A stretch of 64,000 nucleotides of DNA from Amoebophrya sp. A120 (lineage: Eukaryota; Protista; Dinoflagellata), in assembly GCA_905178155.1 (NCBI GenBank), contig CAJINV010000021.1:850449-914448 (forward strand), written 5' to 3'. This document shows, in pieces, positions 2,861 through 64,000 of this stretch. The stretch's first letter is position 1. Every line of letters begins with the position of its first letter. The notes under the pieces were generated by a model, which ran no database searches, was not told where the DNA came from, and was given only the letters and a program-made list of their open reading frames with translations. Position numbers and translations under genes: made by a program.

Positions 2861-5176
2861 TCAAACGCCATCTGGTACCTCCAGCCCCAACAAACTGGCG
2901 TTTCTCTGGATTCGTGATTTGATGGTCCTCTTGTCTTCCTTCGCCAACAGTTCCTCTTGCTCTCGCGTGTCGGCCGAAAGTTCGCTCCCGTGCGCTGCCC
3001 TGGCGTCCCCGCCGCAGGCCGCCGCCCACTTGCGCAAGGTCTCTGCGACCCACAGGTGCGGGTCCCGGAACCAAGCACTTTTCTTTTTCTCGTAGGGTTG
3101 CACGTTGTACACGTTCACGCCCCGCAGGTGTGTGTCCCGCAGCAGCCACAGCTTTGTGTTGTATTGGTTTTTCGCGAGCTCCGTGAGACCCTGAAATCGG
3201 CTTTCGTCCCCGCCCGGACGGCTGTCCGGGTAGACTTTCGCCCCGGTGACCAGACTGAGGCCCACGTTGCTCAGGTTGATCCGCACGGAGCTGAGTGGCT
3301 GACCCCCTTTGTCTCCGTTCGCGTGCACATGATGCATCAGCGTCGCGACCTCTTTTGCGTCGAACAGGTTCACCTTCACGTGTATGAACTCGATTGGTTT
3401 GGAGTTTTCCGTTCCGCGCAGCCGGTTCTGCAGCAGCCGCATCTTCTCCTTGCCCAGCTTCCACGCGTTCCAGCGCAGCCAGAAGCTGTTGGACTCCCGC
3501 GCGTCGAAGCCGCTCGCGCCCAGGCTGAGGTGCGGTTGGAGGCGGGGCGGGTTGGGCGCCACCTTGCCGTTCTGCACCCACGGCGAGAAGGGGGAGGGTT
3601 TATTCCGGTCTCCACTAGGGTCCCATCGCGCGTACCACGCACCGAGGATCAGCTGGAACCAGTCGCGCAGGTATTTTATCCTCTCCAGCCTTGTCCAAAT
3701 CACCACATAAGTGATAGTCCCCGTGTTTCCCTGGTCGTTGAACAGCAACTGAGCGAGCGCGGCCATGATATTATCGTCTCTAGTGTAACCGGTGACGTCG
3801 GATTCTAGGAGCTCGGCGCGCGCGCGTCTTGGAAAGAGCCACTCCTGTGCCTCCTCGTCGAAGTCGGTGTCGACGTTCAAATACGTGCGGATAAGCTCCA
3901 CGCACTTATGAACTGCAAAAGTATCCTATCGCACTCGTATAAATGCATTTCCTCAGCATGAGACATGAAATTTGTAATGCTGACTTACCTTAAGAAAAAG
4001 ATTTGTAATGCATGATTGCAATACGAGTAAGTACGATACTTTTGCACTGGATAGGACTCCTTCAGCAACAAATGCACCGCCGGCTCCCAGTCCGCGACCA
4101 CGATCGTTGTTTCCGGCAAGATATCAAATGCCAAAATGTCTGGGTCTGGAAGAGTGCATGTTTGTCATGCTTGTCTGGCATGACTCTTAAATCTGTCCTG
4201 CACTTTACCCAAGCGCCCCATTTTTCTGTCATGCAGAAACGCAGTTTGTCATGCAGAGTAGGCAACACCTAGAAGCTCAGAAACTTGTCACGCTGAGCCA
4301 GCTTATGCGGCCTCCTCATGATACGCCGCCCAGCATCACAAGTTTCCAGACCCAGACACTTTTACATTTGATACAAGATCTGGCACAAAAACGGCAGCAA
4401 GGAGAAGCCGCTGGTGATGAACACGCTGTTGTCGGCGTCTGCCGGGCGCACGGGGGACGCGGTGACGATCTTGCCGGAAGTAGAAGCCCCCCGGCGGCCC
4501 TTGTTCGTCCCGCTCTTCGTCCAGCCGGGGGCGCGCATGGGCGTGTGCGGAAACCGGACCGGTTCCTGCGGACCCGGACGGAAATAACCCGCGAGCTGCA
4601 GTGGTGCCGCGTGGGGCTGCACGTGCGGGTTTTTGGTTGCGACGGAAGCGAGCGTGTCGGCAACGCCCCCGGCGGCGGCAGAGTGCCGCCCGTCCTCGCT
4701 ACGGCCGGAGTCGGACTCCGAATCATGTTCAGCGCCGAGGACCAGGTGGTTCGTCTCGATCACGTCCCTGTGCAAGCGCTCCACGGCGAAATTCAAAGTG
4801 TCCTATCCCAGAGAAAAAAGCTGGCAGGGCATATTCGTAATGCAAAAATAAATACACAGAGAGATCTGCCATGGGCGGCCTCGTAGCATGCTATTTGGGA
4901 TACGAAATACAAATTTTTTTGTCTATTCATTTTTGCATTACAAATGTGACCTGCCAGTTTTTTTCTGTGTGATATGTCCGCGAACTTGCGCGCGTTCCGG
5001 TGCACGTCTGCGTCCCCAGTCGCCGCGGGCCCGAACGCAGGAAAGACTCTCTCCAGTTCGAACTTCCGCCTGCTTTCCGCCCGGGGTTCCCACGCGGGAC
5101 GGGGACGGGCTGCAGCCGCAGCGGCAGCTGCGGCCACTACGGGGGAGGCGGCGAGTCCGAAAGCCAACTTCATCAT
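2861..5176 (-). CDS. Hypothetical protein with hydrophobic Ala-rich N-terminus; 4 exons, 3 introners
   Basis: ORFs 4793-5176, 4362-4796, a short exon at 4054-4121 and 2861-3901 join in frame (..FADTLNFAV.., ..QILPETT.., ..KESVELIR..) when each element plus 5 nt is removed. Confidence 0.75.
3907..4053. mobile_element. Introner family A (TIR TAT-N4-TGCAAAAGTA)
   Basis: TATGAACTGCAAAAGTATC...GATACTTTTGCACTGGATA; flanks GCACT/GGACT. Confidence 0.85.
4122..4373. mobile_element. Introner family B (TIR TATCAAATG..AAATGTCTGGGTCTGGAA)
   Basis: ~29-nt imperfect TIR; perfect 5-bp duplication CAAGA. Confidence 0.9.
4804..4974. mobile_element. Introner family H (TIR TATC.CA.AGAAAAAA.CTGGCAGG)
   Basis: Long (~55-nt) imperfect inverted arms; perfect duplication TGTCC. 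Confidence 0.9.
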
Positions 5177-5495
5177 TCTTGTTTTTCGGATAATTCTGGA
5201 GTTTGTAGAAAAAAAGTGGGGCGAGACGATGATCAGAAGTTTTTAGATTGCAACGTAAAATCAAAATTAAAGTTATGAGTGAAGGAGTTTTTAGAAAGTG
5301 GTGAGGCCGCACAGCTGCTATCTTTAGCCTACAACAGAAGCAAAGCAAAACCTGTGGGTTTGGACATGTTATTAATATCCTCGCTCGACGTGGTCTTCCA
5401 CGCCGTGGGAAACCGAAACGCACACCACCGACCTCCTCTTCCATGCTTTCAGTACTGCTACTGGGCGGCATGTCAACTTCAATATTCACTCCGAC

Positions 5496-5690
5496 GGATC
5501 CACAAATAACCATTCTGATCCTGAAGTACAAGTAGTAGCTTCGAAAGTCGATCAATTCTGACGGATCCACAAATAACCATTCTGATCCTGAAGTACAAGT
5601 AGTAGCTTCGGAAGTCGATCAATTCCGATGGGGGATCCACAAATAACGACTCTGATCCTGAAGTACAAGTAGTTTCTCGGGAAGTCGACC
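5496..5690. repeat. Three tandem ~67-bp repeats
   Basis: GGATCCACAAATAACCATTCTGATCCTGAAGTACAAGTAG... starts at 5496, 5563 and 5633. Confidence 0.9.
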
Positions 5691-5949
5691 GAATCGTGTC
5701 TATCTCATTCTCCTGTGTCTGTGCCTGTGATCGATCCGGATTTTAATTTATTTCGTGTCGTCACGGTTATCAGTTTAATACTACACAGGAGCAGGACCAC
5801 CGAATCCATTTCTGGAGTAGTAGTACTCGCAGTGAGCCAGTCGACACGATGGCTGGTCGCAACTGCAAGCGAAAGAGGACTCATCGTGATTCATTTATTT
5901 CTTTCTCTTCGTCGCAACATCAACATGATCAGAACTATATTATTAGCGG

Positions 5950-6838: not shown

Positions 6839-8295
6839 TCACGATGGAGCAGGTTCACCGGGTTCACCACCTTCGTTGGGCGGAGCGGGTTCGGTACTAG
6901 CTGGGGCTTGTGGTCCACCTACCTCCGCGGAAGCAGCAGCGGTTTCTTCGGCTGGAGGTGCATCTTCGGCGCCAGGTACTCCTTCTGCAGCCCCGGGGGC
7001 CGCATCGGCTTCGGGACCGGCACCCGTGGTACCTGCGCCTTCCGTAGCAGCCGGTGCAGCAGGTCCTCCTGGGAGAGAAGCTCCTCCTCCACCCGTAGAA
7101 GTACTAGTAGCCCCAGCACCACCAGCCGCTCCCGCCGCCGCACTCTCTGCTGCAGCCGCGCCGGCCGCGCCTGTCGATCCTAGGGCTACAGCTGCAGTGC
7201 CGCCAATCGCGAGCACTACCGCGGCCACGCCGCCGAGGATCAACCCCGCACTGCTGCCTTTGTTTTCGCTTGCATCTTCTTCACCCGTCGTGTTGGAGGA
7301 ACCGGTTCTATTAGCATTCGTGTCGTTGGAGGCGCTGGCAGCTTCGTCTTCTTCACCTGTCGCGCCGGCCTGCTCCTGCTCTCCTGTAGCTGCTGCAGTA
7401 CTGCCGGCGTCGGTACTGCTCGTGCTCGTCGTAGAGGTCGTAGTACTAGTGGTGCTGGTGGTCGTAGTGCTACTCGTAGTGGTCGTCGTGGTGGTCGTGA
7501 TAATCCATTCGCTCGTTGCGCTGTTCACGCTCCATGCGGGCGCGAACAGCTCCACCCCGCAGATGGTGAGGAGGTCAGAAGTCCATTTGTAGTTATCTCC
7601 GGCTCCGTCATTATTGCGTCGCTCGTTCTCGTGCGGCGCCAGTACGTAAACATACTTCACGGGCTGTTTCGCCGAAAAATTGCTGAGCTCGACCTGCACA
7701 CCCTCACTTCCTGGTCCACCCGCGGGCACGTCCCCAAGCTCCACGTAGTCCTGGCCCGCAATGCTGTTAGTGTCCGTGACGAGCGCGTAAAGCTGCTTCC
7801 CTATATGCATTGCAAATATGTCTGGCTCTGGAAAGTTGTAATGCGAAAAGTGAATGTTGGAGTTGGTAGGCTGCACAAGGGCACTGCAATAGTACGGAGC
7901 CAAGCATGACAAATTTTTGAGCTGCTATGTGCTGCGTATTCCGCATGACAAACAACGTTTTTTCATGACAGACAAGAGGACCTGTTGCGATGCCCATATG
8001 CATCACAGATTGAGATTATCGACCTCGACGTCGACCTTGAGTCATGTCTTGTCAGACATGCATGACAAATGTAGTAATCTTCCAGACGACCCGGACACAT
8101 TTGCGTTTGATACCCGATATCCGCGTACGATGCCGAGTCGGTCTCGTCCACCGTGACAAGCGGATCCAGCCACAGCGTCGCACCGTTAAGCCGATCCTTC
8201 GCGTTGGCGTCCTCGCGGTTCCAGATTTTCAGGCGGTCCAGGTGGTGCCGATCGCCGTCCGCGAACCCAACGCGCCATGGGAACAGCAAGACCAA
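6839..8295 (-). CDS. Type I membrane protein 3' part: F-type-lectin (FTP)-like domain, Thr-rich stalk, TM helix, Ala/Pro-rich tail; 5' end unresolved
   Basis: PWRVGF..LKIWNRED..DRLNGATLW joined across the introner (DIG|KQLY) to ..KYVYV..LTICGVELF, then poly-Thr and GLILGGVAAVVLAIGGTAAVAL. Confidence 0.6.
7804..8112. mobile_element. Introner family B
   Basis: TATGCATTGCAAATATGTCTGG...CCGGACACATTTGCGTTTGATA; flanks CCCTA/CCCGA. Confidence 0.85.
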
Positions 8296-10668: not shown

Positions 10669-13600
10669 TCACTCGTTGCTTCCGACCCACTGAACCTGCC
10701 CCTCGGTGGAGCTCCACAACAGGCGTGCCTGCGTGGCGAACGCGTGGTCGTCACAAACGCCAAACATGTTTCCTACGTTCGCAAACCCAGCGGCGTTCAT
10801 TCCGAGCTGCGTTCGAAAGATCCTTTCCAGGAGCCACGCAGGACCCTCGGCACTGCTGATATGACCACCAATGGAGATGATCGAAGATCCGTCCGTCGCA
10901 GACGAACGAACAGTTTCATTTTCGTCTTCCGACATCCACGTCAAAACCGGCGGGAGCGCGAAGCACGACAGGCTCTTTTCGCGCACAATGGTCGCGTTCT
11001 CGTACCACGCACTCGGCCCCAGCGTGCGGTGCAGAAACGTGTTCGCGTGTCTCGGGCAGGGCAGCGTCAACGGACCCAGCGCGCAGTCGGCCAGCGGAAA
11101 GACGCGACTTTCGAGCGCAGCTGCGCTTGACAGGCGAATCACGTCAAGCTCGAAGCGGACGGAGCAGAGGTCGGCGATTCGGGTTTGGTTCGTGTGACAG
11201 AAAAATCCGTGGTGGATGTATCCCTGGAGAAAACCGCAGATCGGAAACTCCCACGCCTGTGCGACCTGGGCAACTCTTTCGATATGCAAGTGCACAAAAA
11301 TTGGAACCCCTCGTCCCCCTCATTGAGAAGGCACATAAATTGCATGTGCATCGGATACGATATAGTTAGCACCATTCTATTATTGCAGCCCATCTAGCCG
11401 TGTAGAAGCAGATAAGCATAAGATGAAATACCTACTGTTTGCATGACAAAAAACGGGAGATGAGTACCAAAGTCCACCAGGCCTGGAGAACTTGTCCCGT
11501 ACCAAGGCCGCGCTTCTGCCATTGAGATTGACTTTGTCGATGTTGCTAATGCTATGCATGACGCCTGTAAGAAATGCAAATGGGCGGGAGACGAGGGAGA
11601 GAGGAGGAGGTGCGTACAACTCTCATACTCGACAACCAGGGACCATAACTGGTCAGAATTATCAAGATTTTCACTGATGTCTCTATCGGCTTTTCGGTCG
11701 GTTACGGTTTCGGTTTCGTTTGTTTTTTCCACTTGTGAAGATGATGCACTGGCACTCGTACTCCGGTCGTGGTTAAGTACAACAGCAACGTCGAAATCGT
11801 GAATTCCCTGTATGGTGCTCCGGCCTCGCGAAAACACTTGCTTCGAATTGTCGTTCGGTATGTCGTACACAACAACTCGTGGAGGGTCAACGTCAACATC
11901 AGAGGTTCGGTGTTTATTCCTGGCTGTTTCAGTTTGTACTGCATGATCGAATTCTATGGGGGGACAAAAAAACTAAAGGAACCGAGAAGGGCACTTTTTT
12001 CGGGGCCACATATTTGGGCACTTTTTTTGCATTGCGGTTGGGCAGTCCGTCGCGGGCGCCAAAACAAAGGACATGTCCCGGCATTTCAGGCCGTTTTCGG
12101 GTGCCGCTTTCATCTCGAAACCTGTCAAAGGCGCCACGGCATTACGCCTGCAATAGAGTGCCCACAGGCATGGGGGGCTTCGACGTGGGCGAACCTACCT
12201 AAGGAGACAAGATGGCCGCTACGCTGCCCTGAATGACAACCCACCCGTGCGGCCGCCCTGCTGATCCGTCGGCAGCGAAAGTTTTGGCCCCCTTTTTTAT
12301 TCACCTGAAAATGTCTAAAGCGAAAAAAGATATACGACTTCGCAGGCATCACGGGGAGCTTGATAGAGTAGACCCGCGAAGGCCTTGCCTGAGAAAGTAG
12401 CTCACTCGGACGGGAGCAAGACCAATGGCGCGCGAGTCGTGTTGCGCTTTGGTTCGAAAATCCGGCTGCTCCTGGCAAAAAAGCGAATGGGCCGAGCGAC
12501 GGAGCCGTGGCTGGCGCGCTCCAAAAAAGCGCCGCGGCTAGCTATACAAGCGCGATCTTCCCAAGCCAGCCTGGACTCGCCGACCTTCCCAGCCGAGGCC
12601 GGCACCGAATGTGGGGAGGGATGAAAAACAGGAGCGCCACAGTGTCCTTTTAGTGAATATGCCGGGGGGTATGGCAAATATGTGGGGCTATACCACCCCA
12701 CATATTCGCAATCAGGGCGGCATACTGAATATTTGGGGTGGAGGGGGCCCGCATAGTCACTAAAAGGACTAAAAGGAGAGCAGCGCCGGCGCCAGCAACC
12801 GACGCGAGACGGAGACGAAGCCGACCTGTGGACGGGCCTCACAAAGCCCGAAGGCTTTTCAACAAGGCGACAACGCCGCCGCTGGTATGCTACGTGCGGC
12901 GAGCTGCGCGACGGATCAAAAACCACCCGCAGGGTAGGGACTGTATGCCCACGGGCAACGAAGACAGGTCGCGCGGCCGCCCTCCTTTTTGCCCCCGGCC
13001 AAGCCGACACACACGCGGAGCCCTTTTGGTTTTCGTGCGGGCGCCCCAAGCCGTAGCCGCCACGCCGGAATCGCCCCAAGGGCTAGAGCCGCCGGGATGG
13101 CACTCGGCTGTGGTTGAAGGTCACTCCGGGGAAATTGAAGAAAATCCCGCAGCGCCATGCTAGGCGCTCAATGCTTTGCACGTGCAAGGAGGGCAAACGC
13201 AAATCGAAAAGGTCGGCTTCACAGGAGGACGCCGCCGGCGCCAATATTTGTAGCGAGTCTGTTTAACAAGCCCCGTTACTTACTACATTAGTGGCGCCCG
13301 GCATCAGCCGAAACATACAGAGCCAGAAGCGCTGTGGGTGCATTTCTCATGGAGACACATGCCCTTTCCAACGAAAAGCGGCAACATGTTGCGCGCTACC
13401 TGAAGAGCAGCAACATGTTGTGTAATTCGCGAAACCTAAAATCCCCCCGAATATGTGGGCCCTGAAAAAAGGCCGCTCTCGGTTCCGCGGCGCTAGTTTG
13501 TCCCCCCATATCGAATTCTGCTTCTTTTTGTTCATCTTTTCCTCCTGGAAGCTCGAATTTCTGCATCCAGTCCCCGTACCGCAAGCTGCTCAACAGCGTA

Positions 13601-15866
13601 CCTATCCCCTGAAAATTAACCATCCCCATCCAATTTGTGATGCAAAGCATGTACGTAAGTTCTGTGTTTGTCATGCAATTGCAAAAAGTGGATGAGGATG
13701 GTCAATTTTCAGGGGATAATGCCACCGCGAATCGTCCAAGCCGTGATCATATCCTGTGCAAAAGCATCGCATTCGTATTGCAGTCATGCATTTACAAATC
13801 TTTTTTTTAAGTGGACAAATTTTATCTCTCGTGCTGAGGAAATTTGTAATGCACCATTTATACGAGTACGATACTTTTGCAGTTCATAGATCAGCTTCTC
13901 TTCGTTCTGCAAGTGGTCAAACAGCCGCTGCGCGTTCGCCGCAAACTCGATGACCTTCTGTCGGTTTGCCGCGAGAAAAGCGTCCACCCTCTCGACCGCC
14001 TTCGCTGGTCCGTGCTCTGCGGCAATTCTTTTCCACAGCTTCGGCAGGGAATGCGAACAAGAAGCATCGTTGCCGTCAGTATCCTGTCCTGGTACAACTT
14101 GTTCCGTCAAAGTACCAGACTTGTCTGCTTCACCCCGTCCTGTCTGACCGTCAACACCACTGCTATCATCCGTATGTCCAAGGAAATGTTTGGCAAACAG
14201 GGTCTGCTGCGACCTATAGGGTGTGGTAACAGCTTCGTGGTATTTGTGCAAGAGGACTGCGAAGGGCGTAATTTTGTCCACTTCCTGTCCAAACCAAAGG
14301 CTACTATGGGATGAAATCTGTGATGCTAATTCCCTGTCGTCGTATAGTTTTACGTGCGTGGACTTCGACGTCTCCGTTGTATCTTTGTGTCGCGAAGCTG
14401 AAAAGCCTCCAGCAACTATCGGTGTCGTCCTTCCGTCTGTCCTCTTAGGTGGCAGCTCTGCGTGTTCTGTTTCCAAATCTGGAGCTGGAGGTGGAAAGAG
14501 AACGTTGAGAAATTTCTGCTGCAAAAAAACCGCCCGCTGCTCTGCACTTTCGAAGTAGACATCATGTTGAATTTGAGTACTTCTATCCTCTTCTCTTTGT
14601 TTGCTGCCATCTCCTTCCGTTGTCGGCCCTCCCGCATCTTTTGCTCCTGCTCCTTGATGATCTGTGCTGGTCTCCGGATTAATTGTGCTACGATCATTGT
14701 AGTTCAACACTTGATTGCCGCGGTGCTCAAAGATCCTGAGCAAAGATAACGATGACCTCCAAGGTCCGCGTCTATTTGCCGCTCCACCCTCCTCGCCACT
14801 TCCTGCCACAACTGGCCGCGCAATTTCCCTCCAGGAGTCGACGTCCCCGCATCACGAGAAAAAAGTGTTACAGTTACACATTTGTTGGAGTTTCTGCATC
14901 ACAAATTTTCTCTGTGTGACAGAAAAAACTTGTAATGCGAAGATCATATATAAGGGAAAACCAAAACAAGAAGGAAACCCGGTTTCTAAGCATTTCCTGC
15001 ATGAGAAAGGTTGTCTGTATTGCCGGTCTTGCAACACAATGTGTAACTGTAACACTTTTTTCTTGCGGTACCCCTCCACCATAATTCACCGCTTCTGTGA
15101 TCTCCGCGTCGAGCTGGTGCGCTATGGCGTTCTCAAACGTTACATTCTCAACTGCTGCATAATTTGTCATGCAAAATGACCATGAGCCGCAAGACGACCA
15201 AGCTGCTTCGCATGACAAATTATCGAAGGGCTAGACAGCATCTAAATCCGTGCCAAATTTGTGATGCAGGACTTGCAAGCTTTCCCCTTTCCCTATTGCT
15301 GCTTTTGCATGACAAACGCATGTAACAGTTGAGAACGTAACAGTTGAGAACGCCATATGCGCAAAAAGATTCCGCAACTGGGTGTGACACTGCAACAGCG
15401 CCCGTAGATTGGTTTCTGCCGCCGCAAAACCCTCGACGTCGGTCGCGAGTTTGTAGGTGTCCCGCACGTGGGTCACAAACGTGTCGAAAAGAACCACGTA
15501 GGAAAGCAGCAAGACCACTACCGGGCAGGAACTGAACAGGTGAGCGGCCAGCTTGATATTTTTCGCTAGGCTTTCGTCATCGTCTGTTCTTGCAGTTCGC
15601 CGTGGTGTTCCCTCGCGTGCTGCGTTTTCCTCGTTTATTTCCACTGCAGCAGCCGCAGCAGCTTTTACACTTAAGTTTTTTGCGCCATCCGTTGCCGCCG
15701 CACCAGCTCTTGTGTATTGAAGATTGGTCGTTGTACTATCTATACTCAATTCCAAATATCCTGAAAATCTTGCAAGTCCTCGCTGTCCCATCATGCTGAT
15801 GAGCACATAATCCATCACAACCACAAGAAGATAGAAGCAATGTACTGTTGTACGCAGCCAGGGCAT
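10669..15866 (-). CDS. LicD/fukutin-family nucleotidyltransferase-like membrane protein; 7 exons, 6 introners
   Basis: Spliced product contains AWTIRGGMLLSSLRYG..IHDFDVAV..FELDV..VFPLADCALGPLTLPCPRHANTFLHRTLG..W, resembling the LicD GTLLGAVRH/DxD and C-terminal motifs; N-terminal hydrophobic segments; all six junctions are in frame. Confidence 0.75.
11283..11627. mobile_element. Introner family L (degenerate)
   Basis: TATGCAAGTGCACAA..CCCCTCGTCCCCCTCAT ... CAACTCTCATA; flanks TTCGA/CTCGA; removal gives VVE|RVAQ. Confidence 0.75.
11955..13510. mobile_element. Large (1556-bp) non-autonomous TIR element with 8-bp TSD inserted in a coding exon (hAT-like TSD length)
   Basis: TATGGGGGGACAAA...TTTGTCCCCCCATA, ~65-nt imperfect TIRs, perfect duplication TCGAATTC at 11947-11954 and 13511-13518; no transposase ORF recognised. 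Confidence 0.9.
13603..13718. mobile_element. Introner family K (TIR TATCCCCTGAAAATT.ACCATCC.CATCCA)
   Basis: Near-perfect ~30-nt TIR; decayed flanks GTACC/ATGCC. Confidence 0.85.
13750..13888. mobile_element. Introner family A
   Basis: Family A TIR; perfect duplication GATCA. Confidence 0.9.
14850..15070. mobile_element. Introner family I-like (TIR ..AGAAAAAAGTGTTACAGTTACACATT)
   Basis: Strong TIR with mutated ends CAT...GTA; flanks CCCCG/CCCCT. Confidence 0.85.
15123..15357. mobile_element. Introner family E (TIR TATGGCGTTCTCAA..GTTAC.TTCTCAACTG)
   Basis: Perfect duplication TGCGC. Confidence 0.9.
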
Positions 15867-17833: not shown

Positions 17834-20525
17834 TCACAAATCCATCACCACCTTAGACGCCAAAACTCGATCCCAGACGCAATCTCCCTCCACCTTTTCC
17901 GGTAAATAGGCCATCACGGTGCGCTATGCAGTGCAAAAGTATCGCACTCGTAGTACTAATTGCAGTCATACATGACAAATCTGGTTCCTTAGCTTATTCA
18001 GCATTTATACAAATTCCATTTTTCCTTCTGGAAAAATTTGAATGCTATTCCTATTTCTACTAGTACAATACTTTTGCACTGCATATACGCACATTGTCCT
18101 CCTTCGGCTTCGGGGGGTGGCGGAACAGTTTCAGTTCGTAATTCCACCGGCCCGAGACGCGGAAAATGCACCCGCGACTCTCGTCCTCGTGTATCTCGCA
18201 GCCGTCGAGAAAAATCCGACTGTTCGTGCCCGCATCTCGCAAACTTTCCGAAGTCGCCCGTCCTGTTCTGTCCTCGTTCTGCGTTCCTCCTGAAAAATCC
18301 TCTTCGTGCGCCAACCTTCTCCCGGCTCCGTAGGCGGCCGCGCGGGCGCCGGAAGGAGACAGGAGCGCATTGCACGGCTTTTTCGCCGCCTTCACGAAGG
18401 CAACCTCGCCGGGTTGCTTTTCCTCCACTATCTCGAACAGCAATTGCTTCATACGGCTGATCCCGTCCCTACTGACACCAATCAGGCGGAGCAGAAAAAC
18501 AAAGTCTAACACCGTCAATGGCGTCTCAGTCGCCTCGACATCTTCTTGGGAGGATGCTGAAGATGCTGGCCGCCCACTGTCGTCGTCGTGGTCTACTTCT
18601 GATGATGTCGCTGGCCGGCGCCGTTTGTTGCTATTTTTGCGATGGAAGTTCGTCTCGCTTTCGTGATTTTCTTCTTCCTCCTCCGTGGGCGTGGCCCGGT
18701 TCCGCTCCTCATACCGTTGCCGATACTGTCGGAACGCGTTCTCCACAATAGATGACCGGGATCTTCGCATGGGTAGCCGCGATAATATCGCCTGCTGCAT
18801 CGCTCGCGCGTCCTCAACGTAACCCGGTTCTTGCCGTGTGATATTCTCCTCTTCCGTGGTCCAAGTTGTTTCGTTCGATGACTCGTCTTGAAAGGAATCT
18901 AGTCGTGTTCGTGTTGTGGGTGATACTACATTGGAAGACGAAGATGCTGCACTAGCCGCAGCTGCATTGGATCTACTCTGCTCAGGCTCACCCCGCCGCC
19001 GCCGGTTCCTGACGCGAAGCTCGGGATAATCATGGTAAAAAACCGTGGTCGGCATTCGCATCCGGTTCTTGCGTCGCGCACAGCTCCTCGCTGGATCTTC
19101 CCCAAAATTGCTGCTGCTGTTAATGGTTGGACTAGTTCCTGCGGCGGGGGCGGGTCGCTGGCCGTTGCTGTTGCTCGTCCTCTCCTGATGATGTGCTGCA
19201 TCGTGATTACTCAGGGGCGGCCGCAGGTTGGCCTCGTGGTCTCCTGAAGATGCAGCATCAACAAAAGCTACATCGTGGCCATCAGGCTCGTCCTGCAAGA
19301 ACTCGGAGAAGCTCTGTGTCATCATCGAGCACCAACGGCAGAGGGACGAGCTGTCATCTCCGTAGAACCGCGCGAGCTGGCAAAGTAGCCGTTTCCGCCG
19401 GAGTTTTCCTTCGCGTGTGAAAGCGTCTGCACGGGCGCGGTCCACCACGCCAAGCGAATTCTTGAAATCCACAAAATTCGGGCGCCAGATCCACTCCGCG
19501 AAAATCTGGTCCGGCAGCGTGTTCAAAGCGTAGAAGTTTTTCTGGGACGAATTATCGTCTTGCTGGGGGTTTAGGTTTACGTTTATTTCGTCTGCTTGAT
19601 GCTCTGCTACTGGTACTGCTTCTTCTGGTACCACCACCACGACGTCGTGCTCTACTTTACCTCTTTCAACTACGACCTCAGCGGTTTCTTCGTCCTGTAG
19701 TCCTCCTTCCCGATGATTCTGATTCATCTTCATCTCGTGCTCGTTTTCCTTCTCGTTTTCAACATCTGAAGATGAAGCTACTTCTGCCTGATCTTGATGA
19801 TCTTCTTCGTCCTCATGCCTTAATTGCTCTAATGCGTCGTTGAGTCTCCGCGCGGACCCCCCAAAAAGAAGAGGCAGGGCAGAACGCGGCCTGCCGTGTC
19901 GCGGCCTTTGAATTTGATGCGCGCCGTTCGCCGCGTCATGCTGTTGTTCCATGGACGAGAAATCGGTATCGGACTCCACCTCATCGCTTTCGGAGGTTTC
20001 GGGCCCTTCATCTTCTTGTTGTGCAGTTCCCGAAGAGCTGCCTGCTTTCCTATTTGAACTGCAAACCAGCCTTCCCGTGGACGATACGACGTCTTTCGCA
20101 CCATCGAACGGCAATCCCCGCAGCATCGGGATCCGCCGGGGCGGGTTGCAAAGCCTCAAAGGGTAGAAGTTGCTTTTGCTTGTTACAAGCAACAATGGAT
20201 CGGTGATCATGTCACAGTTGTCGGTTGGGCATTCGCGCTCGACCACAACTCCACCTCCATGTAGTTGTTGATTAACATGCGCGAGAACTACACTTTCGTC
20301 ATGCTGGCTGCTGTTCCTGCCATCCGTCTCGCCGGCCGACGACGCCGACGCGCCGTCTTCAGAGAAGCTACTTGCTCTCACTGTGAGACCGTACCCGAAA
20401 GTGCCTCGAATTCGGTGGAGTTCCAGCAGCAATAGCAACATAAGTTGTCTTGGTCCAAGATGACCAGGGCGACCGGACACGAAAAGCGACGACGCACGTC
20501 GTTGCGAAGAGACTAACACACACAT
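17834..20525 (-). CDS. Hypothetical low-complexity protein with N-terminal hydrophobic stretch; 1 introner
   Basis: 826-aa ORF 18060-20540 continues after the introner as ..NVR|TVMAYLPEKVEGD..VMDL* (TGA at 17834-17836). Confidence 0.75.
17925..18085. mobile_element. Introner family A
   Basis: TATGCAGTGCAAAAGTAT / ATACTTTTGCACTGCATA; flanks TGCGC/TACGC. Confidence 0.9.
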
Positions 20526-23875: not shown

Positions 23876-23899
23876 TGCAGACAAAGTGCCCAAGCTTCT

Positions 23900-34822: not shown

Positions 34823-35280
34823 GAAAATCTAGTACCATCGTCCCCAATATATTAATCTTCCATTTCCCGCATGACAAGAAGACAAAGTAGAAACTAAATC
34901 CTTGAGCCGATCCTCTCTTCAACTAATCCACCATGTCAAATCCTGGTGTGGAAAACACAAAAACGCCAAAAAACATCTTCACGGCCGAGCATCCTCCTCT
35001 TTCCTCTTCTCCCGGGGGGTCGGTCGCAGTGGCGGTTCATATTTTTATTTTTTTTGGGTTTTTGGTTTCACAAAACAAGGCAATTCAAATGTCTTAGGCT
35101 GCGAGAGCTGCATGGCAAACGCGTTCGCAAATGAAATGGCCTACCGTGACGCACTTTGAGCACCATCCTCAGACATAAGGTCCGTAGCCTGTTAGTGGTA
35201 GCACAACAACAAAAACATCTTCAAACACACATCTTCCTACCATTCTCACGCTAAGTTTAAAGTAGAAGAACAGAATCTGT

Positions 35281-49629: not shown

Positions 49630-50294
49630 CTAAAACCAACGGCCTCCTTGCGCTGGTTGTTCTACTTTGGCCTCTTTCGTTGTTTTCGGTTTCACTTCCA
49701 AACTATTTCTCACTTCCAGCAACTTGTCCCGTATCGAGTTTAACAAAATCGTTGCAGGCTTTTCCGATTTTCCTATGACGCCATCTCGCTTGCTGTTTGC
49801 CACCCAGTCGAAGCCGCCGGTCTCTCCCGCCGGTGGCGCTTCCACAAACGAGGCCATTTTCTCCGGCGCCTGCGATGCTTGCAACTGCGCCTCGTAAATT
49901 CTCATCTTTTCCTGCGCTTCCTTCAAAGCGAACAGGGCGCTCCGTAGACTACGCTGCTGGTCGAAAAAGGACTCCGGAGTGAGCGGCTCATCTGCATTTT
50001 GTGTCTTGTATCCTGTGCAAAAGTATCGCACTCGTTCTCGTACTAATTGCGTTTATGCATTACAAACCTTTTTGCTAAGGCAAATCTGCATTACGAATTC
50101 AATTTGTAATGCTAAGTCAATTTGTAATGCAATTTCTACTAGTACGATACTTTTGCAGTTCATATCTTGCCCCTGTTCCCGATCGCGCTTAGTTTCTCCG
50201 CAGAGTAGTCGTGAAAGCTCTCGGCGTCATTGAGTTGTCCCTGAAGAAGCTTGCGCAGAGCCAGCGTACCGGTCACCGCCGCGGAGCCAGGCAT
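49630..50294 (-). CDS. Hypothetical small coiled-coil protein; 1 introner
   Basis: MPGSAAVTG..NRGK|TQNADEPL..LFALKEAQEKMRIYEAQLQ..GGRWF*. Confidence 0.65.
50009..50164. mobile_element. Introner family A
   Basis: Perfect duplication TCTTG. Confidence 0.92.
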
Positions 50295-50965: not shown

Positions 50966-53849
50966 TTACGCTATATTCCCAACCATCCCGCCGTAGCGTT
51001 CCTTGCAGAATTTCCCGCCGTCCTCTAACGCTTGCGCGCAGAAGGGGTGCCGCTGCACTTCTTCCAGTTGAATCCGCTCCGTCGGTTTTTTCCGCAGCAT
51101 TTTCGTAATCAAGTCCTTGCTATAGATTGCAAAAGTACCGTACAACTCGCTGCAGTTGCAGTAGTTGCAACTTGAACTTCCAGTGCATGACAGATCTAGT
51201 AAACTAGTATTTTACCTGGCTTAGCATTACAAACTGAAACTCCGACGGTTCATCTTGGAATAAAGTTTGTATTCCAATTTGTACTTTCTAGTACGGTAAC
51301 CTTGCATTGCATACTTGCAGTCGGGCGAGAGGTGGTCGGGGAAATAGGGTTTTTCCACCCGAATCTTCTTGTAAGTCGTCATGGTGTCGCCGCCTTCGAA
51401 GGGCGCGCGGCCGATATCCCCAGAAAAATAAACCCATCTTCCTCTTCCATTCTTTGCATGAGAAACACGCGACAATTGAAATTGATGCATGTTTTAGTAC
51501 AACATCACAAATTGGATGGGGATCAATCATGGGTCTACTTTTTTTGTGGATCATAGCCGACCACAAACTCGTACAACAGCACCCCTAATCCCCACACGTC
51601 CGCCATGGTACTCTTCGCCAGTTGCGCCGCGGGCATGTTCGGCTCGACCACTTCTGGCGCGAGGTAATCGAGCGTCCCGCAGAAGGTCGTGCGCTTCAAC
51701 GAAGGCGCGTGCACCGACCACCCAAAGTCGGCGATCTTCAGGGTGTCGTTGGTGCCCAAGAGAATGTTTTCCGGCTTGATGTCGCGGTGCACGACGTGTT
51801 TCCGGTGCAGGTACCGAAACGCGTCCACCATCTGGGACAGGTACCAAGCGGCCCGGTACTCACTGAAGTAGTGCTTCGCTTTCAGGACGGCGTACCTAAG
51901 GGTATCGTGGAAAAAAAAAAAATGGAATTCACTGCGAGGCTCCTTCCTAGGGATTCAAACTCAACAACATATTCATATTCATTTTCGCGTCTTTGTCTTT
52001 CGACGTGAAGTTTTACTTTCACATGTTGATGATTCATCCACCTTGGACCACAAAAATCACAAAGTAGAAATCCGTATAGAACACTCAGTATCCTTTATCT
52101 ACAGCTCTCCCCCCGGTGCGATTTCGAGCATGAGGTAGATTCGGGTGTCGTCCCAAAAATAGTTGTGCAGACGGAGGATGTTTGGGTGTCGCAGGTGGCA
52201 CTGAATCTCGATTTCGCGGATCAACTGGTGCTCGACGCGGTGTTTCTGCAGCTGCTTCTTGTATCAAAATGAAAAATCCCCCCTCCCCACATCAAAGCGG
52301 AAGTTTGTGATGCTGATTTGTGGCCACACATCCGAGCCGTCTTGCTGGAGAGCACTGCAGGCCCACGCCAAGCGTGAGTAGAGAGGTTTTGGCCTAGGCG
52401 CTTAGCATGATAAACGTCCGCGCTGTAGGCCCAACAGCATGACAAACCGCCTGCATACTGCGGCGCAGCCTGCGGAGTTGCTTTCTTGCAAGACAGGCAC
52501 GATTTGTGACCACAAATCAGCATGACAAATTTCCAAAAGTATACCTTTTCAGTACTATGGGGAGGGGGGATTTTTTCTCTCAATATCTTGCTCAGAATCT
52601 TCAGCGCGAAGACGTAGTCGGAAATTCGGTCCCGCGCGAGGTAGATGTTGCCGAATTTTCCCTTGTATGCACTGCAAAAGCATCGCACTCGTAGTAATCG
52701 AAATTATGCATTGCAGATCTTTTTGTTTTTCTTCTGGCAAATCCGCATCACAAATTCCATTACTTATGCTGAGCAAATTTGTATCGCACCACTTAGTATC
52801 GATACTTTTGCAATGCATACCTTGCCCAAGGGCTTCCCCACGTCCAGGTCCTCGAGGCAGTAGGCCGCGTCCTGGTCCTGCTCGATCCCCTCCTCGATGC
52901 GGTCGATCGGGGTTATGACATAGTCGTCATCCTGGATCAAGCCAACGCTACGGGAGGCGGCAGGCGACGACTGCTTTTTAAAAGTTTTCGTACCCGACCC
53001 AGAGGACGGCGCTGGCTGTCCGCCGGCGCCGGCGGCTGCGTTGCTCGAAGTAGCGGCGGCTGAGGAGCTGCTAGAAGCAGACCCGCCTGATTTGTTCGAA
53101 ACAGAGAGAAGTTTTACTTTGAGTTTGACGTGCATCTCATCCACATACCGCCAATCTAGTCTGTTCCTTCGAGCATGTATACTTTAAAGAGACTGATAGG
53201 ACTGACTATCCCTACAGCTAATTTCGTAGGTCGTGTGGTCAACGACATTCTCACTCGAAACTAGTTATGCAAGGCACTTCTTTCTTTACTACCTGCTCCT
53301 TGGCCAGCGGCCACTGCCGGGAGCGCTCCTTGTTTGCTCCCCGGACCCGTGCCTCCAGCGTTGGCCGTGTTCTTGACCGCACCACCGGGTCCCGCACCAG
53401 TGGCCGCAGCTGCGTTGTGATTCACCGGCTTTGGGTTGCCCGCTAGTCCAGCCTTTTGCCGCTTCGAGCTTGGCGAGTAACTTGGTGCGCCGGGCGCCGG
53501 CTTGGGCAGGCCTTGTTTATACTTGTTGAAAATGCTGCTGATGGGCTGCGGGCCGGCGGAAGTCGCTGTAAGAGTTTATTTGTTGTGCCATGATGTCGTA
53601 ATAGAAATCCATTTTTTTTCCTACTTACTGGGGCGGCGCGATTGATTTTGATTCTTTTCAATAAAAATGTAAAGCAAGACAAGAAGGACAAAAACTTCTA
53701 CCTTGCGCGAGACCACCGAAGAGGCTGCTGCCGCCGCTGGCAGAAGGTGTGGCCTTTGCCGCTACACCGCCTGGCTTGCCGGGTTTGCTCGATGTAGCCC
53801 CGCCGGCTGTACCCCCACCAAAGAGCGACTTGCCGCCAAATTTGTGCAT
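50966..53849 (-). CDS. AURK: Aurora-family Ser/Thr kinase; 4 introners plus canonical introns (e.g. 51896-52102); N-terminal exons approximate
   Basis: Spliced: GKPLGK|[18 protein letters not shown]|[78 protein letters not shown]|RAPFE..PDCK|DLITKML..HPF. Confidence 0.95.
51121..51313. mobile_element. Introner family A
   Basis: Perfect duplication CTTGC; interrupts the kinase C-lobe. Confidence 0.9.
51415..51555. mobile_element. Introner family J-like
   Basis: Perfect duplication GCCGA; removal gives VVG|RAPF. Confidence 0.9.
52262..52585. mobile_element. Introner family C
   Basis: Perfect duplication TCTTG; removal gives LSK|KQL. Confidence 0.93.
52666..52819. mobile_element. Introner family A
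   Basis: Perfect duplication CCTTG; splits the GxGxFG loop. Confidence 0.93.
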
Positions 53850-56479: not shown

Positions 56480-58867
56480 TTACTTTTTGGTTTCCTCCTC
56501 CCCGTTGACGCTGTGGCCATCTTCCTTCTGATGTTCGTCTGCACTTTGACCTTCGCTTTTTTTCAATCCTTCTGCATCAGCCGCAACCTCCTCCTGTCGC
56601 TGCAAAACTTCATTAGTCCCCCCTTCCCGTGGCAGCTTTTCATCCTTGAAGCTCTTCTCCTCTTGCAACGTCGAGCCTGCTTGCTGCAACGTGCCGATCT
56701 TGTCTTCGTGCACGACGGTAGCACAGGTGTGCAACTTGTCCTCTTCGTCCGCAGGACCACCAGCACACCGCCCGTTCATGTTCCGGATTTGCTCAGAAAG
56801 CGCGTCGCTTTTGTTAGTTGCAGTGGACATCTTTCGCAGAACGTGCGCGACTTTCTCGTTCATTTTGTCAAGCCCATCGGCGTTGGTTTGCGGTGGAGCT
56901 TGCTTGTTCGTGGTCCCACTGTTCAAATCGAACCACAGGTCGCGCTTCTGTGCAGATTGACGACTTTGTTCCGCAGCGCCTTTCTGTCCCGCGACGCCGT
57001 GCAGGACGCGCAGACTGTTCGCGTCATATTGATTCCGTTCGTTGCTACTTCTAGCCTGCAGTAAAAGGTTGTCGTTGTTCTGTGCCCCTCGTCGGTAACC
57101 GCCCGAACTGCCCTTCGCGACACGTCTGGTTATCAGCAGGGCCCGCTCCAGTTGGGCAAGTTCTTCTGCATCGAACCGGTTGAGAGACTCTAAAGCAGCC
57201 TGGTCTTCTTCACAGGAAGCGAAGGGTCCTCGCATCTTGTTCAACAAGGAATCGCTAGTGACGCCCTGCTGCTTAGTGATTTTCGTGTTTATTTCTTCGC
57301 AATTTTTATTTTTCATCTCCTGTAGTTGCAGCGCTCTCTGCCCGTGCTGCTGCGGCGTGCTGCTCGTCAGCGAGAAGAATCCGTTTACCTCCTGCAGCAA
57401 CTGGCGCACACGATGTTGTCTCGTCGATGGCTGGTCCTCTTCAGCCGATCTGCTTCGCTTCCGCCGGAATAAGTACAGACGGGCTCGCTCCCGAAGAGTG
57501 AAGTGATCGTCCACCAAAACCAGGAAGCACATGACGGGCAGAATCAAGCCCAAGATCTGCCAGAAGAGTAGGACCGTGTGGCTGGTCTTCGTGGCAATTT
57601 CGCTAGTACTCGTGTCAACCAGTACTTGCTGCGGGGTCTGCGTGTTTGCTGTCTGGTTGCTGTTGGCCGCAACAGCAACTGGGGTGTTGTTAGTACCCGT
57701 AGAAGATGCAGTACTCGACGCCGTCAAGGTAGTTGTCTGCTCCCCTCCACCGGCAGCCGACGACATTCCGGTGGACATTACTTCGGAATCCAGCCCCACA
57801 CCCGTCGCGGCGAACCCCAGAATCACGAGGAGGAGGGTCAGCAGCAGCTCCTGCGCGTTCGCCGTCGCGCTGGCAAAGGGTCGGAACAGGTGCGTGCTGA
57901 GGAGGTACACCAGGAGCACCGAGGTTGCACAGGTGACTTGCGAGTACCCGTCGCGAAAGAGAATTGCGGACAGTGCAAAGCCGCAATCCTTGAGTAGCAC
58001 CACGATGCACCACCAGTAAAATTCGCTGCGGAACGGCGCCCACGCAAAGCCGAAAAAGTCCTCAAGTTGTGCAATGCGCGCCAAAAGAGTTGTTGACACT
58101 TGCGCAGCGGTGACATCGTTTTTTGTTCCTGTTTCAGTTGCAAAAGATGATGAGTTGTCCTTGTGGTGGTCCACCAATTGCAACTTCTTTTTCTGCATTT
58201 CCGCCGCACTTTCTGCTGGTCTATTTTTGGAGCCCACCTCCGCTGTTCTCCATGCACTAAGTAGTCTTTCGTTGCTCGCCAGAGAGCCTAGGTTCCAGCG
58301 CAGTAGCGCACTCCCCACCGCCAGGAAGAGGATCGGCGCAGACAACGCCATGAGCGCAACGGCGATCGCCGGAAAGAAGTACTCCGAGTGGGCGTTCTGC
58401 GAGCCATCAGCATCTCGCTGGTCCTGCCCACAGGCCACATGACGAAAAATCCGGTGCGTCGTCGACTCTTGGTCGTTATGCTCCATGCAGTCGAAGTATG
58501 CAATACAAATTTCCCGTACATGTACAAAATGCATGACAAATTTCGCTAACTTGGAGCGTCAAACTTGTCATGCTGACTGAGATTGTTGAGTGGGACTTCT
58601 GTCATGCAGAAACAGCATTTGCACGTCGTGCACGGGAAATATACTGTGGATACAAAGAAATCCAAGGCGTTCCGACTGCTCATCGGGTAAAGCAAAAGCA
58701 CCAGCGCACCAGCGAGTCGGAGGTATCCGCCAATCTGCATGCTGCTGCCTTGGTCGTGGTCCGGGTTCTTCCTGATCTCCCGCTGGTCTGGAGTGGCGGA
58801 AGAAAGACCTGAGTTTATATTTTGTGTTTCCAAGTACACATTTTTTCCATACTTCGAGTTTCGCCAT
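56480..58867 (-). CDS. Multipass membrane protein with TRP-C-like / protist GPCR-like transmembrane region; 1 introner
   Basis: LLYPMSSRNALDFF|DC..C..FGFAWAPFRSEFYWWCIVVLL..Q..YL..FRPF..NAQELLL; multiple hydrophobic helices; 5' end may extend into 58883-59977. Confidence 0.75.
58497..58652. mobile_element. Introner family G (reverse orientation)
   Basis: TATGCAATACAAATTTCCCGTAC...CGGGAAATATACTGTGGATA; flanks CGAAG/CAAAG. Confidence 0.88.
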
Positions 58868-62683: not shown

Positions 62684-63232
62684 CGTGCTGTTTGTGTCGA
62701 CGATTCAGTCTGCCAATAACGACAAAAACGACGTAACTACACTACTAGATTACAGTTCAAACATTTGTGAATGATCTCCAGCACCACGGAATATCTGAAT
62801 GTTTTCAAGGTCCGGTTTAGAGTGCGGATGTTTGTCGTCCGTGCTGCCGCAAAGCGCAAATCATGGCCAAATTTCTCTATACTCTGCCTTCGGCTTTGGT
62901 ACAACGCACGTGCAACTCGAGCAAGCTCCAGATATACGCTTTTGCAACGTGCCAGTACCTACCTCTCGTCCGTTGCTGTTTTTTATTCCATTTGGTAGTG
63001 GTAAATCGCAGTATCATGAATAAGCAGACTCCTCTCGCAGGTCTCTCGCTCTCGATAGCGTCGCACATGCTCCTTCTTTTGACGAAGGGAAGATGACAAA
63101 AATCGGGGTATATTGAACGCACGATGCAGCATCTGCTGTCGCATCGAGAACACGAGAAGCAGCGCAGCGACCTCAGCATGTGGAATAGTGTTATTGTTGC
63201 ACCATGTGTTGTTGCAATGTCAAAAGGTATCT

Positions 63233-63960
63233 CTACAGAAACCCCGGCTGCACGGTTGGTTCCTGATTGAACAATATTCTCATGCACTTGCACCACTGTG
63301 GGGACAGTCCTTTCCTCTTCATACTGGCCTCGTCCATGAACTTGGTGATGCACTTTGTGTAGTGCCCGTACACCGTGATCTCCGCCAAGTGTCGCACGTC
63401 CACGCGCCCGGAGTCTAGCAGAATCACCGCACTATACTGGAACTTGCCGTTGACCGCCTGTTCGGGTTTGGGATTTTTTGAACTTTGATCATGTTCGAGC
63501 CCCTCCATGGAAGAGTAGACCAAGTGCTCCTGCGCGAATTCCACGATCACGTTCACGGTTGCAGAGTCCAGCACCTTCTGTCGGTTGTTGTTATCCCTTG
63601 TTTCGCTCGGGCGGATCAGGGCCGAGCTGGACTGGACCACACGACAGGGGGATTCGTGGAAGGGGAGGTCGCAGTATGACAGTGCACAATTCCCGCCCCC
63701 ACCTCATGTGTCATGCAAAATCCCAAATCCAGTCCTCACTGCCTCGTGGCACTGTTTGCATGACTGAATAAATTTCGAAAGGAGCCCAAACAGTACTACA
63801 GCAAGTGCATAGATTTGTCATGCACAGGCTCCAGGGTCGCTGGCGCCTGTATTGCTGTTCATGCAATACAAATGAGGGGAAGGGGGAGTTGTGCACTGTC
63901 ATACGCATATTTCGTCGACGTTCTCCACGTCGTCCTCCGGTTTCAGGGTGCGCAGCAAGG
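63233..63960 (-). CDS. 3' part of a hypothetical protein gene entering from the right edge
   Basis: LLRTLKPEDDVENVDEIC|DLPFHESPCRVVQSS.. joins ORF 63233-63640 in frame across the introner. Confidence 0.6.
63675..63903. mobile_element. Introner family L
   Basis: TATGACAGTGCACAA / TTGTGCACTGTCATA; flanks CGCAG/CGCAT. Confidence 0.9.
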
Positions 63961-64000
63961 TATCCACTCAAGAAGTACTATCGCACTCGTAGTAATTATC
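63961..64000. mobile_element. Left end of a family A introner, truncated by window edge
   Basis: TATCCACT..AAGTACTATCGCACTCGTAGTAAT matches family A left ends. Confidence 0.65.

What the first reader, a model, noticed from the sequence alone, without database searches (positions are those of the whole stretch)
3907..64000. A multi-family introner system with one universal grammar: 5-bp TSD + TAT-[family TIR]...[TIR]-ATA, removed precisely with one TSD copy
Seen: 55 short exonic insertions fall into about a dozen families with dissimilar bodies and TIRs. Almost all start TAT and end ATA, and all sit between 5-nt direct repeats (perfect or decayed). Deleting element+5 nt restored the frame at every complete element, including inside the invariant Aurora GxGxFG loop. 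Established: non-canonical introns with inverted and direct repeats ('introners') have been reported in Amoebophrya genomes, so the general phenomenon is not new. Inference: the strict shared rule suggests one mobilising enzyme and one excision machinery serving many non-autonomous families.
Basis: partly seen in the sequence, partly recalled or inferred. Interest (0 to 1): 0.85.

Follow-up and report, generated by a model that had tools for sequence, protein, structure and literature searches.

The report
Hairpin introns cut by a ruler
Fifty-five small hairpin-ended inserts interrupt the genes of what is likely the marine parasite Amoebophrya, a class already published; every tested insert is missing from likely messenger RNA by exactly its length plus five bases, and the cuts likely fall at one fixed distance from the insert's ends, which would give the still unexplained removal machinery a simple code to test.

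Summary
My own catalogue has 55 exonic elements: 49 have TAT…ATA at both ends, 29 a perfect 5-bp duplication, and no other length fits. The rule holds in 407 homologues outside the window. Likely-RNA contigs from one sample lack all 16 elements with a listed joint by element+5 nt; 14 of 16 cannot be GT-AG. This is the published introner system of Amoebophrya A120 (PMC7789003: TAT start, 3-5-nt repeats, 1954 families). Not seen in the papers I read: all 13 informative junctions fit one cut, 1 nt before TAT and 4 nt after ATA in mRNA sense, measured from the element end, not the repeat; end changes are strand-asymmetric, sparing intron +2U and -7A; a shared internal motif GCATNACAAAT lies in both orientations. 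Best reading: non-autonomous DNA transposons removed by a relaxed spliceosome (inferred). One mobilising enzyme is untested; no transposase-bearing copy was found. The scan already noted the register and the motif on other pieces of this genome.

The parts
3907..4053 (.). element, family F1; flanks 1 mismatch
4122..4373 (.). element, F3; perfect 5-bp repeat
4804..4974 (.). element, singleton; perfect repeat
7804..8112 (.). element, F3; 1 mismatch
11283..11357 (.). shortest element (75 nt), singleton; no recognisable 5-bp repeat; +5 removal joins a 214-aa ATG frame
13603..13718 (.). element, F10; 2 mismatches
13750..13888 (.). element, F1; perfect repeat
14850..15070 (.). element, F6; both terminal triplets changed; 1 mismatch
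15123..15357 (.). element, F4; perfect repeat
17925..18085 (.). element, F1; 1 mismatch
22863..23107 (.). element, singleton; perfect repeat, weak inverted ends
23164..23317 (.). element, F7; 1 mismatch
28906..29208 (.). element, F5; repeat unrecognisable (4 mismatches); removed +5 in likely RNA, register 3-4
29445..29606 (.). element, F7; perfect repeat; removed +5
29653..29937 (.). element, singleton; removed +5, register 4-5
29939..29949 (-). 11-nt micro-exon between two elements, kept in all four likely-RNA runs
   Evidence: table 5c
29954..30204 (.). element, F4; removed +5, register 3-4; reads GT-AG at register 4
30636..30839 (.). element, singleton; removed +5, register 0-4; present in the DNA-like run X1
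31231..31585 (.). element, F2; removed +5, register 4-5
31963..32146 (.). element, F1; removed +5, register 2-5
32275..32529 (.). element, F6; right end ACA; removed +5, register 4-5
32684..32991 (.). element, F5; removed +5, register 4-5
33090..33413 (.). element, F2; perfect repeat; removed +5
33480..33786 (.). element, F8; removed +5, register 2-5
34054..34335 (.). element, F5; removed +5, register at most 4
34538..34736 (.). element, singleton; matching repeat lies 3 nt further out, yet the cut is measured from the ATA end (register 4-5)
34815..35358 (.). longest element (544 nt), found from the RNA joint; 3 mismatches; removed +5, register 3-4; unspliced contigs also seen
35889..36128 (.). 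element, F4; perfect repeat; removed +5
36191..36435 (.). element, F9; perfect repeat; removed +5
36604..36853 (.). element, F9; perfect repeat; joint not among those listed
36920..37076 (.). element, F1; left end TGT; joint not among those listed
37234..37595 (.). element, singleton; perfect repeat
37742..37855 (.). element, F10; perfect repeat
38018..38367 (.). element, F2, opposite orientation to 31231; register 4-5 inferred from a contig piece starting at 38368
38658..38925 (.). element, F3; perfect repeat
39932..40299 (.). element, F8; perfect repeat
40353..40595 (.). element, F3; perfect repeat
40949..41273 (.). element, F2; perfect repeat
41516..41797 (.). element, F4; matching repeat lies 3 nt further out on the left
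41921..42211 (.). element, singleton; right end GTA; 2 mismatches
42716..43036 (.). element, F2; perfect repeat
43081..43342 (.). element, F3; perfect repeat; most homologues outside the window (114 of 407, the family searched for)
43392..43600 (.). element, loosely F1; perfect repeat
44079..44401 (.). element, F2; right end ATG (would give a GC donor at register 4)
44452..44660 (.). element, F6; perfect repeat
44730..45087 (.). element, F4; 1 mismatch
45686..45967 (.). element, F5; perfect repeat
47549..47820 (.). element, F3; perfect repeat
48351..48657 (.). element, F8; perfect repeat
50009..50164 (.). element, F1; perfect repeat
51121..51313 (.). element, singleton, in the kinase gene; perfect repeat
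51415..51555 (.). element, singleton, in the kinase gene; perfect repeat
52262..52585 (.). element, F2, in the kinase gene; perfect repeat
52666..52819 (.). element, F1, inside the kinase glycine loop; folds as a long hairpin (z -6.5)
58497..58652 (.). element, F7; 1 mismatch
63675..63903 (.). element, F9; 1 mismatch
63961..64000 (.). left end of a further element (F1-like by eye), cut by the window end
50988..52900 (-). protein kinase host gene (approximate limits) with four elements and one GT-AG intron at about 51896-52102
28600..39000 (-). host gene (approximate limits), 1491-aa frame after removal of 22 elements; 16 removals seen in likely RNA
39100..46950 (-). host gene (approximate limits), 1415-aa frame after removal of 12 elements

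Best explanation
The 55 inserts are TAT…ATA hairpin-ended repeats with 5-bp flanking duplications that are absent from likely mRNA by exactly their length plus five bases; they are likely non-autonomous DNA transposons that a relaxed spliceosome likely removes at a fixed distance from their ends. Shown: shared ends and repeat length, many families in both orientations, exact removal in one likely-RNA sample. Strongly inferred: the intron is N-TAT…ATA-NNNN in mRNA sense, so the message keeps 4 nt of the upstream repeat and 1 nt of the downstream one, whatever those bases are. Because both ends read TAT inward, either orientation supplies U+2 A+3 at the donor and an A at -7, and a fresh insertion is silent anywhere in an exon. 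Inferred: the spliceosome (U1 not detected in this genus, PMC7789003) reads +2U and uses the -7 A as a branch-like residue, with the paired ends replacing GT/AG definition. Weakly inferred: an integrase-like DDE transposase (IS3EU/GingerRoot/IS481EU-like ends) that binds the shared internal motif moves all families.
For: Removal: 16 of 16 elements with a listed joint, of 18 in the stretch, lose element+5 nt with no other letters in the exons; the DNA-like run X1 holds 30636-30839 in place. Register 4 fits 13 of 13 informative junctions, registers 3 and 5 fit 7 and 8; chance about 1e-4 for a uniform cut over six positions. 31231 and 38018 are one family in opposite orientations and both need 4 or more. 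At 28906, 34538 and 34815 the repeat is decayed or displaced, yet +5 is removed. In 431 elements outside the window, with a strand caller right in 48 of 49 held-out window cases, the terminal base is changed at 1 donor end against 12 acceptor ends (p 0.003) and the third base at 14 donor against 4 acceptor ends (p 0.03); the two biases run in opposite directions for the common transitions, so one mutation bias cannot give both. Internal motif: 126 hits in 47 of 55 elements (10.7 per kb) against 9 outside (0.2 per kb) and about 3 in shuffles, no strand bias; 474 of 483 outside the window. TA..TA ends with 6-bp repeats mark IS3EU/GingerRoot and TNT..AYA mark IS481EU; an A120 introner family with inverted ends and integrase-like frames is described.
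Against: All RNA evidence is assembled contigs of one sample whose RNA status is the tool's guess, and of one gene on one strand. A cut wobbling over positions 3-5 is excluded only at p about 0.012. The -7 A is not absolute: 4 of 431 acceptor ends read GTA, and with a cruder ORF-length strand caller that asymmetry shrank to 6 against 4. There is no drift towards GT-AG: G at +1 gained 10 against 6, AG 3 against 2; at register 4 only 17 of 55 start GT/GC, 10 end AG, 3 have both, which is odd for a spliceosome. Element 34538 folds poorly (z -1.5) yet is cut exactly, so a stable hairpin is not clearly the ruler. No transposase-bearing copy was found, PMC7789003 found no transposase in A120, and the repeat is 5 bp, not the 6 bp of IS3EU. 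The motif shows no significant orientation to the nearer end (p 0.21).
Confidence: 0.6

Rival explanations
1. Same fixed cut, but made by a non-spliceosomal hairpin-guided endonuclease and ligase, as proposed for euglenid nonconventional introns.
For: No GT-AG need and no drift to it; strong hairpin at 52666; euglenid introns pair at fixed offsets (+4 to +6 with -8 to -6) and leave as circles (PMC11282704 passages); U1 not detected in the genus.
Against: Base-specific, strand-asymmetric constraint at +2U and -7A matches spliceosomal chemistry (the comparison with donor and branch consensus is recalled knowledge); nearly all spliceosomal proteins and U2, U4, U6 are present; a weakly folding element is cut exactly.
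Confidence: 0.22
2. Splicing as in the best reading, but the shared grammar is a filter rather than one enzyme's signature: unrelated transposons or captured DNA persist in exons only if they carry TAT ends and a 5-bp repeat, so several enzymes may move them.
For: PMC12130899 assigns A120 introners to LTR, non-LTR and several TIR classes; 55 of 55 lie in coding frames although about 27% of the non-satellite sequence is non-coding; bodies are dissimilar, 21 clusters.
Against: No inverted-repeat elements with other triplets and a 5-bp repeat turned up (329 TAT against at most 1 for each of 13 other triplets, though in loci chosen for one TAT family); a strand-neutral internal motif is shared by nearly all families, which a splice filter would not demand.
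Confidence: 0.3
3. The joints are artefacts or not RNA: reverse-transcriptase skipping across hairpins between direct repeats, DNA of a strain without the inserts, or DNA-level excision.
For: Hairpin plus direct repeat is the classic setting for template switching (recalled); the runs are 'RNA?' by guess and one sample; low-depth contigs keep 34815-35358.
Against: Frames need the removal; exact +5 removal where repeats are decayed, and at 34538 the nearby perfect repeat is not used; exons are letter-identical while junctions mix left and right copies, which an insert-free strain would not show; an 11-nt exon is kept; X1 holds the element in place.
Confidence: 0.06

Closest known systems
Introner elements / non-canonical introns of Amoebophrya sp. 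A120 (Farhat et al. 2021, PMC7789003; seen: abstract, passages, sections 10, 11, 16, supplement legends S19-S25; figures not seen)
   Same: Inverted repeats that start TAT, 7 looser bases, then at least three A; 3-5-nt direct repeats (5 bp in Fig. S19); mean non-canonical intron 240 nt against 247 nt here; many families; RNA-supported removal; no transposase inside.
   Different: The paper calls the splice position variable or unknown and gives a range of repeat lengths; here one length (5) and one cut position fit, with constraint at +2U and -7A and a shared internal motif, none of which appear in the parts I read.
A120 introner family 38 and similar families (Gozashti et al. 2025, PMC12130899; seen: passages, SI legends; Dataset S2 gave no hit for the genus name, so its rows were not seen)
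   Same: Inverted ends, intron-forming, tens per gene, integrase-like similarity offered as a route of spread.
   Different: Family 38 has frames with LTR-element similarity; no element here has; whether its ends read TAT…ATA was not seen.
IS3EU/GingerRoot and IS481EU DNA transposons (PMC10045372; seen: passages)
   Same: TA..TA or TNT..AYA ends, short inverted repeats, non-autonomous families.
   Different: Their repeats are usually 6 bp (IS3EU/GingerRoot) or about 4, 15, 25 bp (IS481EU); 5 bp here; no transposase here to place the elements; splicing is not mentioned in the passages seen.
Euglenid nonconventional introns (review PMC11282704; seen: passages)
   Same: Paired ends at fixed offsets from the junctions, repeats at the borders, no GT-AG, likely MITE origin.
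   Different: Pairing at +4/-6 with CAG/CTG there, +2/-5 with TAT/ATA here; circles shown there, product unknown here.

Membership tests
Amoebophrya A120 introner elements | Inverted repeats beginning TAT, then about 7 nt, then an A-run | tested here: met
   107-108 of 110 ends at positions 1-3; A at 11-14 in 82-96 of 110 against the text
Amoebophrya A120 introner elements | 3-5-nt direct repeats at the borders | tested here: met
   29 of 55 perfect 5-bp, 44 of 55 within one mismatch; 320 of 407 outside
Amoebophrya A120 introner elements | Repeated, in many families | tested here: met
   10 families plus 11 singletons; 407 homologues at 70-95% identity
Amoebophrya A120 introner elements | Removed from RNA without GT-AG | tested here: met
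   16 of 16 listed removals, 14 not readable as GT-AG in any equivalent position; RNA status is a guess, one sample
Amoebophrya A120 introner elements | Host is Amoebophrya A120 | tested here: inconclusive
   Inferred from the match to the published element features; no marker gene tested; no genome held; earlier scan notes say the same but are unchecked
MITE (non-autonomous TIR DNA transposon) | Inverted ends, constant target duplication, no coding frame, either orientation | tested here: met
MITE (non-autonomous TIR DNA transposon) | Cognate autonomous element or empty sites in relatives | tested here: inconclusive
   No copy over 972 nt or with a frame over 150 aa among unpaired ends in loci of 2 kb or more; three long candidates were chance pairings; only 0.86 Mb, overlapping, was seen
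IS3EU/GingerRoot | TA..TA termini | tested here: met
IS3EU/GingerRoot | Usually 6-bp target duplication | tested here: not met
   0 of 55 and 0 of 407 perfect 6-bp repeats
IS3EU/GingerRoot | Integrase-like DDE transposase of that clade | not testable with these tools
   No coding copy in hand and no genome held
U2-type spliceosomal intron | GT/GC donor and AG acceptor | tested here: not met
   3 of 55 are GT-AG at register 4; 17 GT/GC, 10 AG
U2-type spliceosomal intron | U at +2 and a branch adenosine near the 3' end | tested here: inconclusive
   Constraint at +2 (1 against 12) and -7 (4 against 14) by strand asymmetry; weaker with another strand caller; branch not shown
U2-type spliceosomal intron | Lariat, dependence on U2/U5/U6 and Prp8 | not testable with these tools
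   Needs experiment

The most novel reading that the evidence does not exclude
This parasite splices tens of thousands of introns with a position-based code, N-UAU…AUA-NNNN, that needs no GU or AG: the transposon's own symmetric ends act as donor and branch signal in either orientation, so one integrase-like transposase, recognising a shared internal motif, can turn any small DNA into a silent intron at any exonic site.
Probability: 0.4. Interest if true: 0.8.

Novelty: already known. Interest (0 to 1): 0.5.

Why it matters
The elements are published, but their removal is stated to be unexplained and their border unknown (PMC7789003). A fixed 1+4 cut with constrained +2U and -7A turns that into concrete tests (where a lariat should branch, which bases a minigene needs) and lets the many non-canonical introns of this genome be annotated to the base. 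It would also explain why insertions cost nothing in either orientation, and so why these elements reached such numbers. The internal motif is a handle for finding the missing mobilising protein.

Tried and rejected
These loci share no unique sequence with the window beyond one 554-nt repeat at 80%; whether they are the same strain is not known. The viral collection gave no match. The motif-free inverted-repeat scan at low stringency was mostly noise and its output was cut; one search is the usable control. The first lay was swamped by repeat copies and listed no exon-exon joint in its joints table; only its pieces were used. No listed holder is on record as RNA. Long candidates L046:5039-11235, L057:10001-14208 and L044:10001-11031 were chance pairings of short elements; L048:10001-10972 is a short element with an internal insert. 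Drift of decayed repeats towards GT-AG looked present with a Markov strand caller (G at +1, 9 against 1-2; neighbour agreement only 86 of 116) but not with the validated one (10 against 6): rejected. No target-site base preference is evident. A cut right after ATA-G, which would give AG in 17 of 55, is excluded at 11 of 13 informative junctions. Rfam: no family in the window. Pfam: 2 of 7 exon pieces hit, both kinase. Roy et al. 2023 is not held; its preprint was seen only as a search listing. Six literature searches showed no paper giving a fixed register or the internal motif; figures of PMC7789003 (Figs 3, S19-S25) and the datasets of PMC12130899 were not seen and may bear on this.

Full report
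Observation. A mechanical scan for a 5-nt repeat around TAT…ATA with inverted ends gave 25 perfect-repeat hits against 0 in 10 shuffles and 37 near-perfect hits against 0-3. I dropped 2 of the 37 as weak and non-exonic and added 20 by reading, from motif clusters and from one RNA joint, reaching 55 complete elements of 75-544 nt and one cut by the window end. 49 of 55 have TAT and ATA intact. The ends share TAT, seven looser bases and an A-run. Only length 5 gives perfect repeats (29 of 55; 0 for 4, 6, 7, 8); four elements have no recognisable repeat. BLAST gives 10 families and 11 singletons, with members in both orientations. All host frames are on the minus strand. Removing element+5 everywhere yields frames of 1491 and 1415 aa over 22 and 12 elements, against at most 841 aa for other offsets, and restores the kinase glycine loop.

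Outside the window. No genome is held. One family's end pattern fetched 143 loci from the metagenome collection. Of 407 full-length homologues, 387 start TAT, 388 end ATA and 320 have a perfect 5-bp repeat, none a 6-bp one. With the same criteria, 329 elements end in TAT and at most 1 in each of 13 other triplets. These loci were chosen for a TAT family, so the control is not fully blind.

Removal. Four runs of one sample, RNA by the tool's guess, were laid on 27150-37200, which holds 18 elements. Fifteen joints are listed (2 more hidden) and cover 16 elements; each skips element+5 nt, the exons show no other letters, and an 11-nt exon between two elements is kept. The DNA-like run X1 carries 30636-30839 in place. 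By my reading, 14 of the 16 cannot be GT-AG in any equivalent position. An insert-free strain is unlikely, since junctions mix bases of the left and right repeat. Template switching is unlikely, since removal is exact where the repeat has decayed (28906, 34815) and ignores a perfect repeat 3 nt away (34538).

The cut. Mismatched repeats show which copy each retained base comes from. Counting k as the bases kept from the upstream copy in mRNA sense, k=4 fits 13 of 13 informative junctions (12, one from a piece boundary), k=3 fits 7 and k=5 fits 8; the chance is about 1e-4 for a uniform cut but only 0.012 against a wobble over 3-5. So the intron is likely 1 nt + TAT…ATA + 4 nt. Elements 31231 and 38018 belong to one family, face opposite ways and both need k of 4 or more: the cut follows transcription, not the element. 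I had this register and the motif below before opening the scan's earlier notes; several notes on other pieces report the same, which is repetition, not independent proof. One note named a conserved A at -7, which I then tested.

Which bases matter. Since both ends read TAT inward, DNA-level forces should treat them alike. In 431 outside elements oriented by a codon model (48 of 49 right on held-out window genes) the outermost base is changed at 1 donor end and 12 acceptor ends, the third base at 14 donor ends and 4 acceptor ends (p 0.003 and 0.03). The window's own variants go the same way (1 against 2; 2 against 0). This spares intron +2U and the A at -7. Against: four acceptor ends lack that A; an ORF-length strand caller gave only 6 against 4; there is no drift to G at +1 or to AG; only 3 of 55 are GT-AG at k=4. 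One element folds as a strong hairpin (z -6.5), another that is cut exactly does not (z -1.5).

Internal motif. GCATNA[C/G]A, usually followed by AAT, occurs 126 times in 47 of 55 elements, 9 times in 45 kb outside and about 3 times in shuffles, and in 474 of 483 outside elements. It has no strand bias (p 0.53) and no significant orientation to the nearer end (p 0.21), which suits a double-stranded DNA site better than a splice signal. That it binds a transposase is inference.

Mobility. No coding copy was found: long candidates were chance pairings or carried an internal insert. TA..TA and TNT..AYA ends mark the integrase-like IS3EU/GingerRoot and IS481EU groups, and an A120 introner family with inverted ends and integrase-like frames is in print, but the repeat length differs and the same paper assigns A120 introners to several classes. 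All 55 elements lie in coding frames although 12 of 45 kb outside the satellites is non-coding; gene bias is common for introners, and the test is partly circular because frames were defined after removal.

What is known. PMC7789003 describes these elements: TAT + 7 nt + AAA ends, 3-5-nt repeats, 1954 families, 29,850 copies, RNA support, U1 not detected, no transposase in A120, border position variable or unknown. The window's organism is inferred from that match. The fixed register, the base asymmetry and the motif were not in the parts I read, nor surfaced in six searches; figures and datasets that I could not see may hold them. Euglenid nonconventional introns are the nearest working analogue.

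Verdict. Real, and a known system. My odds: removal at the RNA level 0.9, fixed 1+4 cut 0.8, spliceosome as the cutter 0.65, one mobilising enzyme 0.45. Interest 0.5, for making a stated open question testable.

Noticed in passing
window 1-1850 and 5977-6170: Satellite of 103/153/256-nt units, each with a short palindrome (ATTCCGATTTT…AAAATCGGAAT); two stray units near 6000-6170.
   Followed up: no
window 23600-27050: Three abutting tandem arrays: 13-nt A-rich, 8/19-nt and 22-nt units, giving long spurious open frames on both strands.
   Followed up: no
window 34815-35358: The longest, decayed element is covered by unspliced low-depth contigs in all four likely-RNA runs (X6 bridges its right end), while 29838-30173 has none; possibly less efficient splicing. 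One sample, contigs only.
   Followed up: partly
window 41516 and 34538: Three extra bases between the element end and the matching repeat; under the fixed cut they would add one codon to the protein (shown in likely RNA for 34538 only).
   Followed up: partly
window about 51896-52102: A GT-AG intron in the kinase gene holds one decayed element-like end (TAT followed by an A-run) 7 nt from its acceptor; possibly an old element turned canonical.
   Followed up: no
window about 2480-2830 and 55520-56070: An intergenic repeat of about 500 nt present twice by eye, with an 80% copy in L048/L049; no TAT…ATA ends noted.
   Followed up: no
window 12634-12779: Intergenic nested inverted repeat with TAT…ATA at 12658-12724 but no internal motif; left out of the catalogue.
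   Followed up: no
   Followed up: partly
window, all host genes: Every host frame with elements lies on the minus strand, in line with the unidirectional gene clusters described in the abstract of PMC7789003.
   Followed up: partly
window 27383-28600: Likely-RNA contigs run more than 1 kb beyond the end of the 1491-aa frame, suggesting a long 3' untranslated region free of elements.
   Followed up: no
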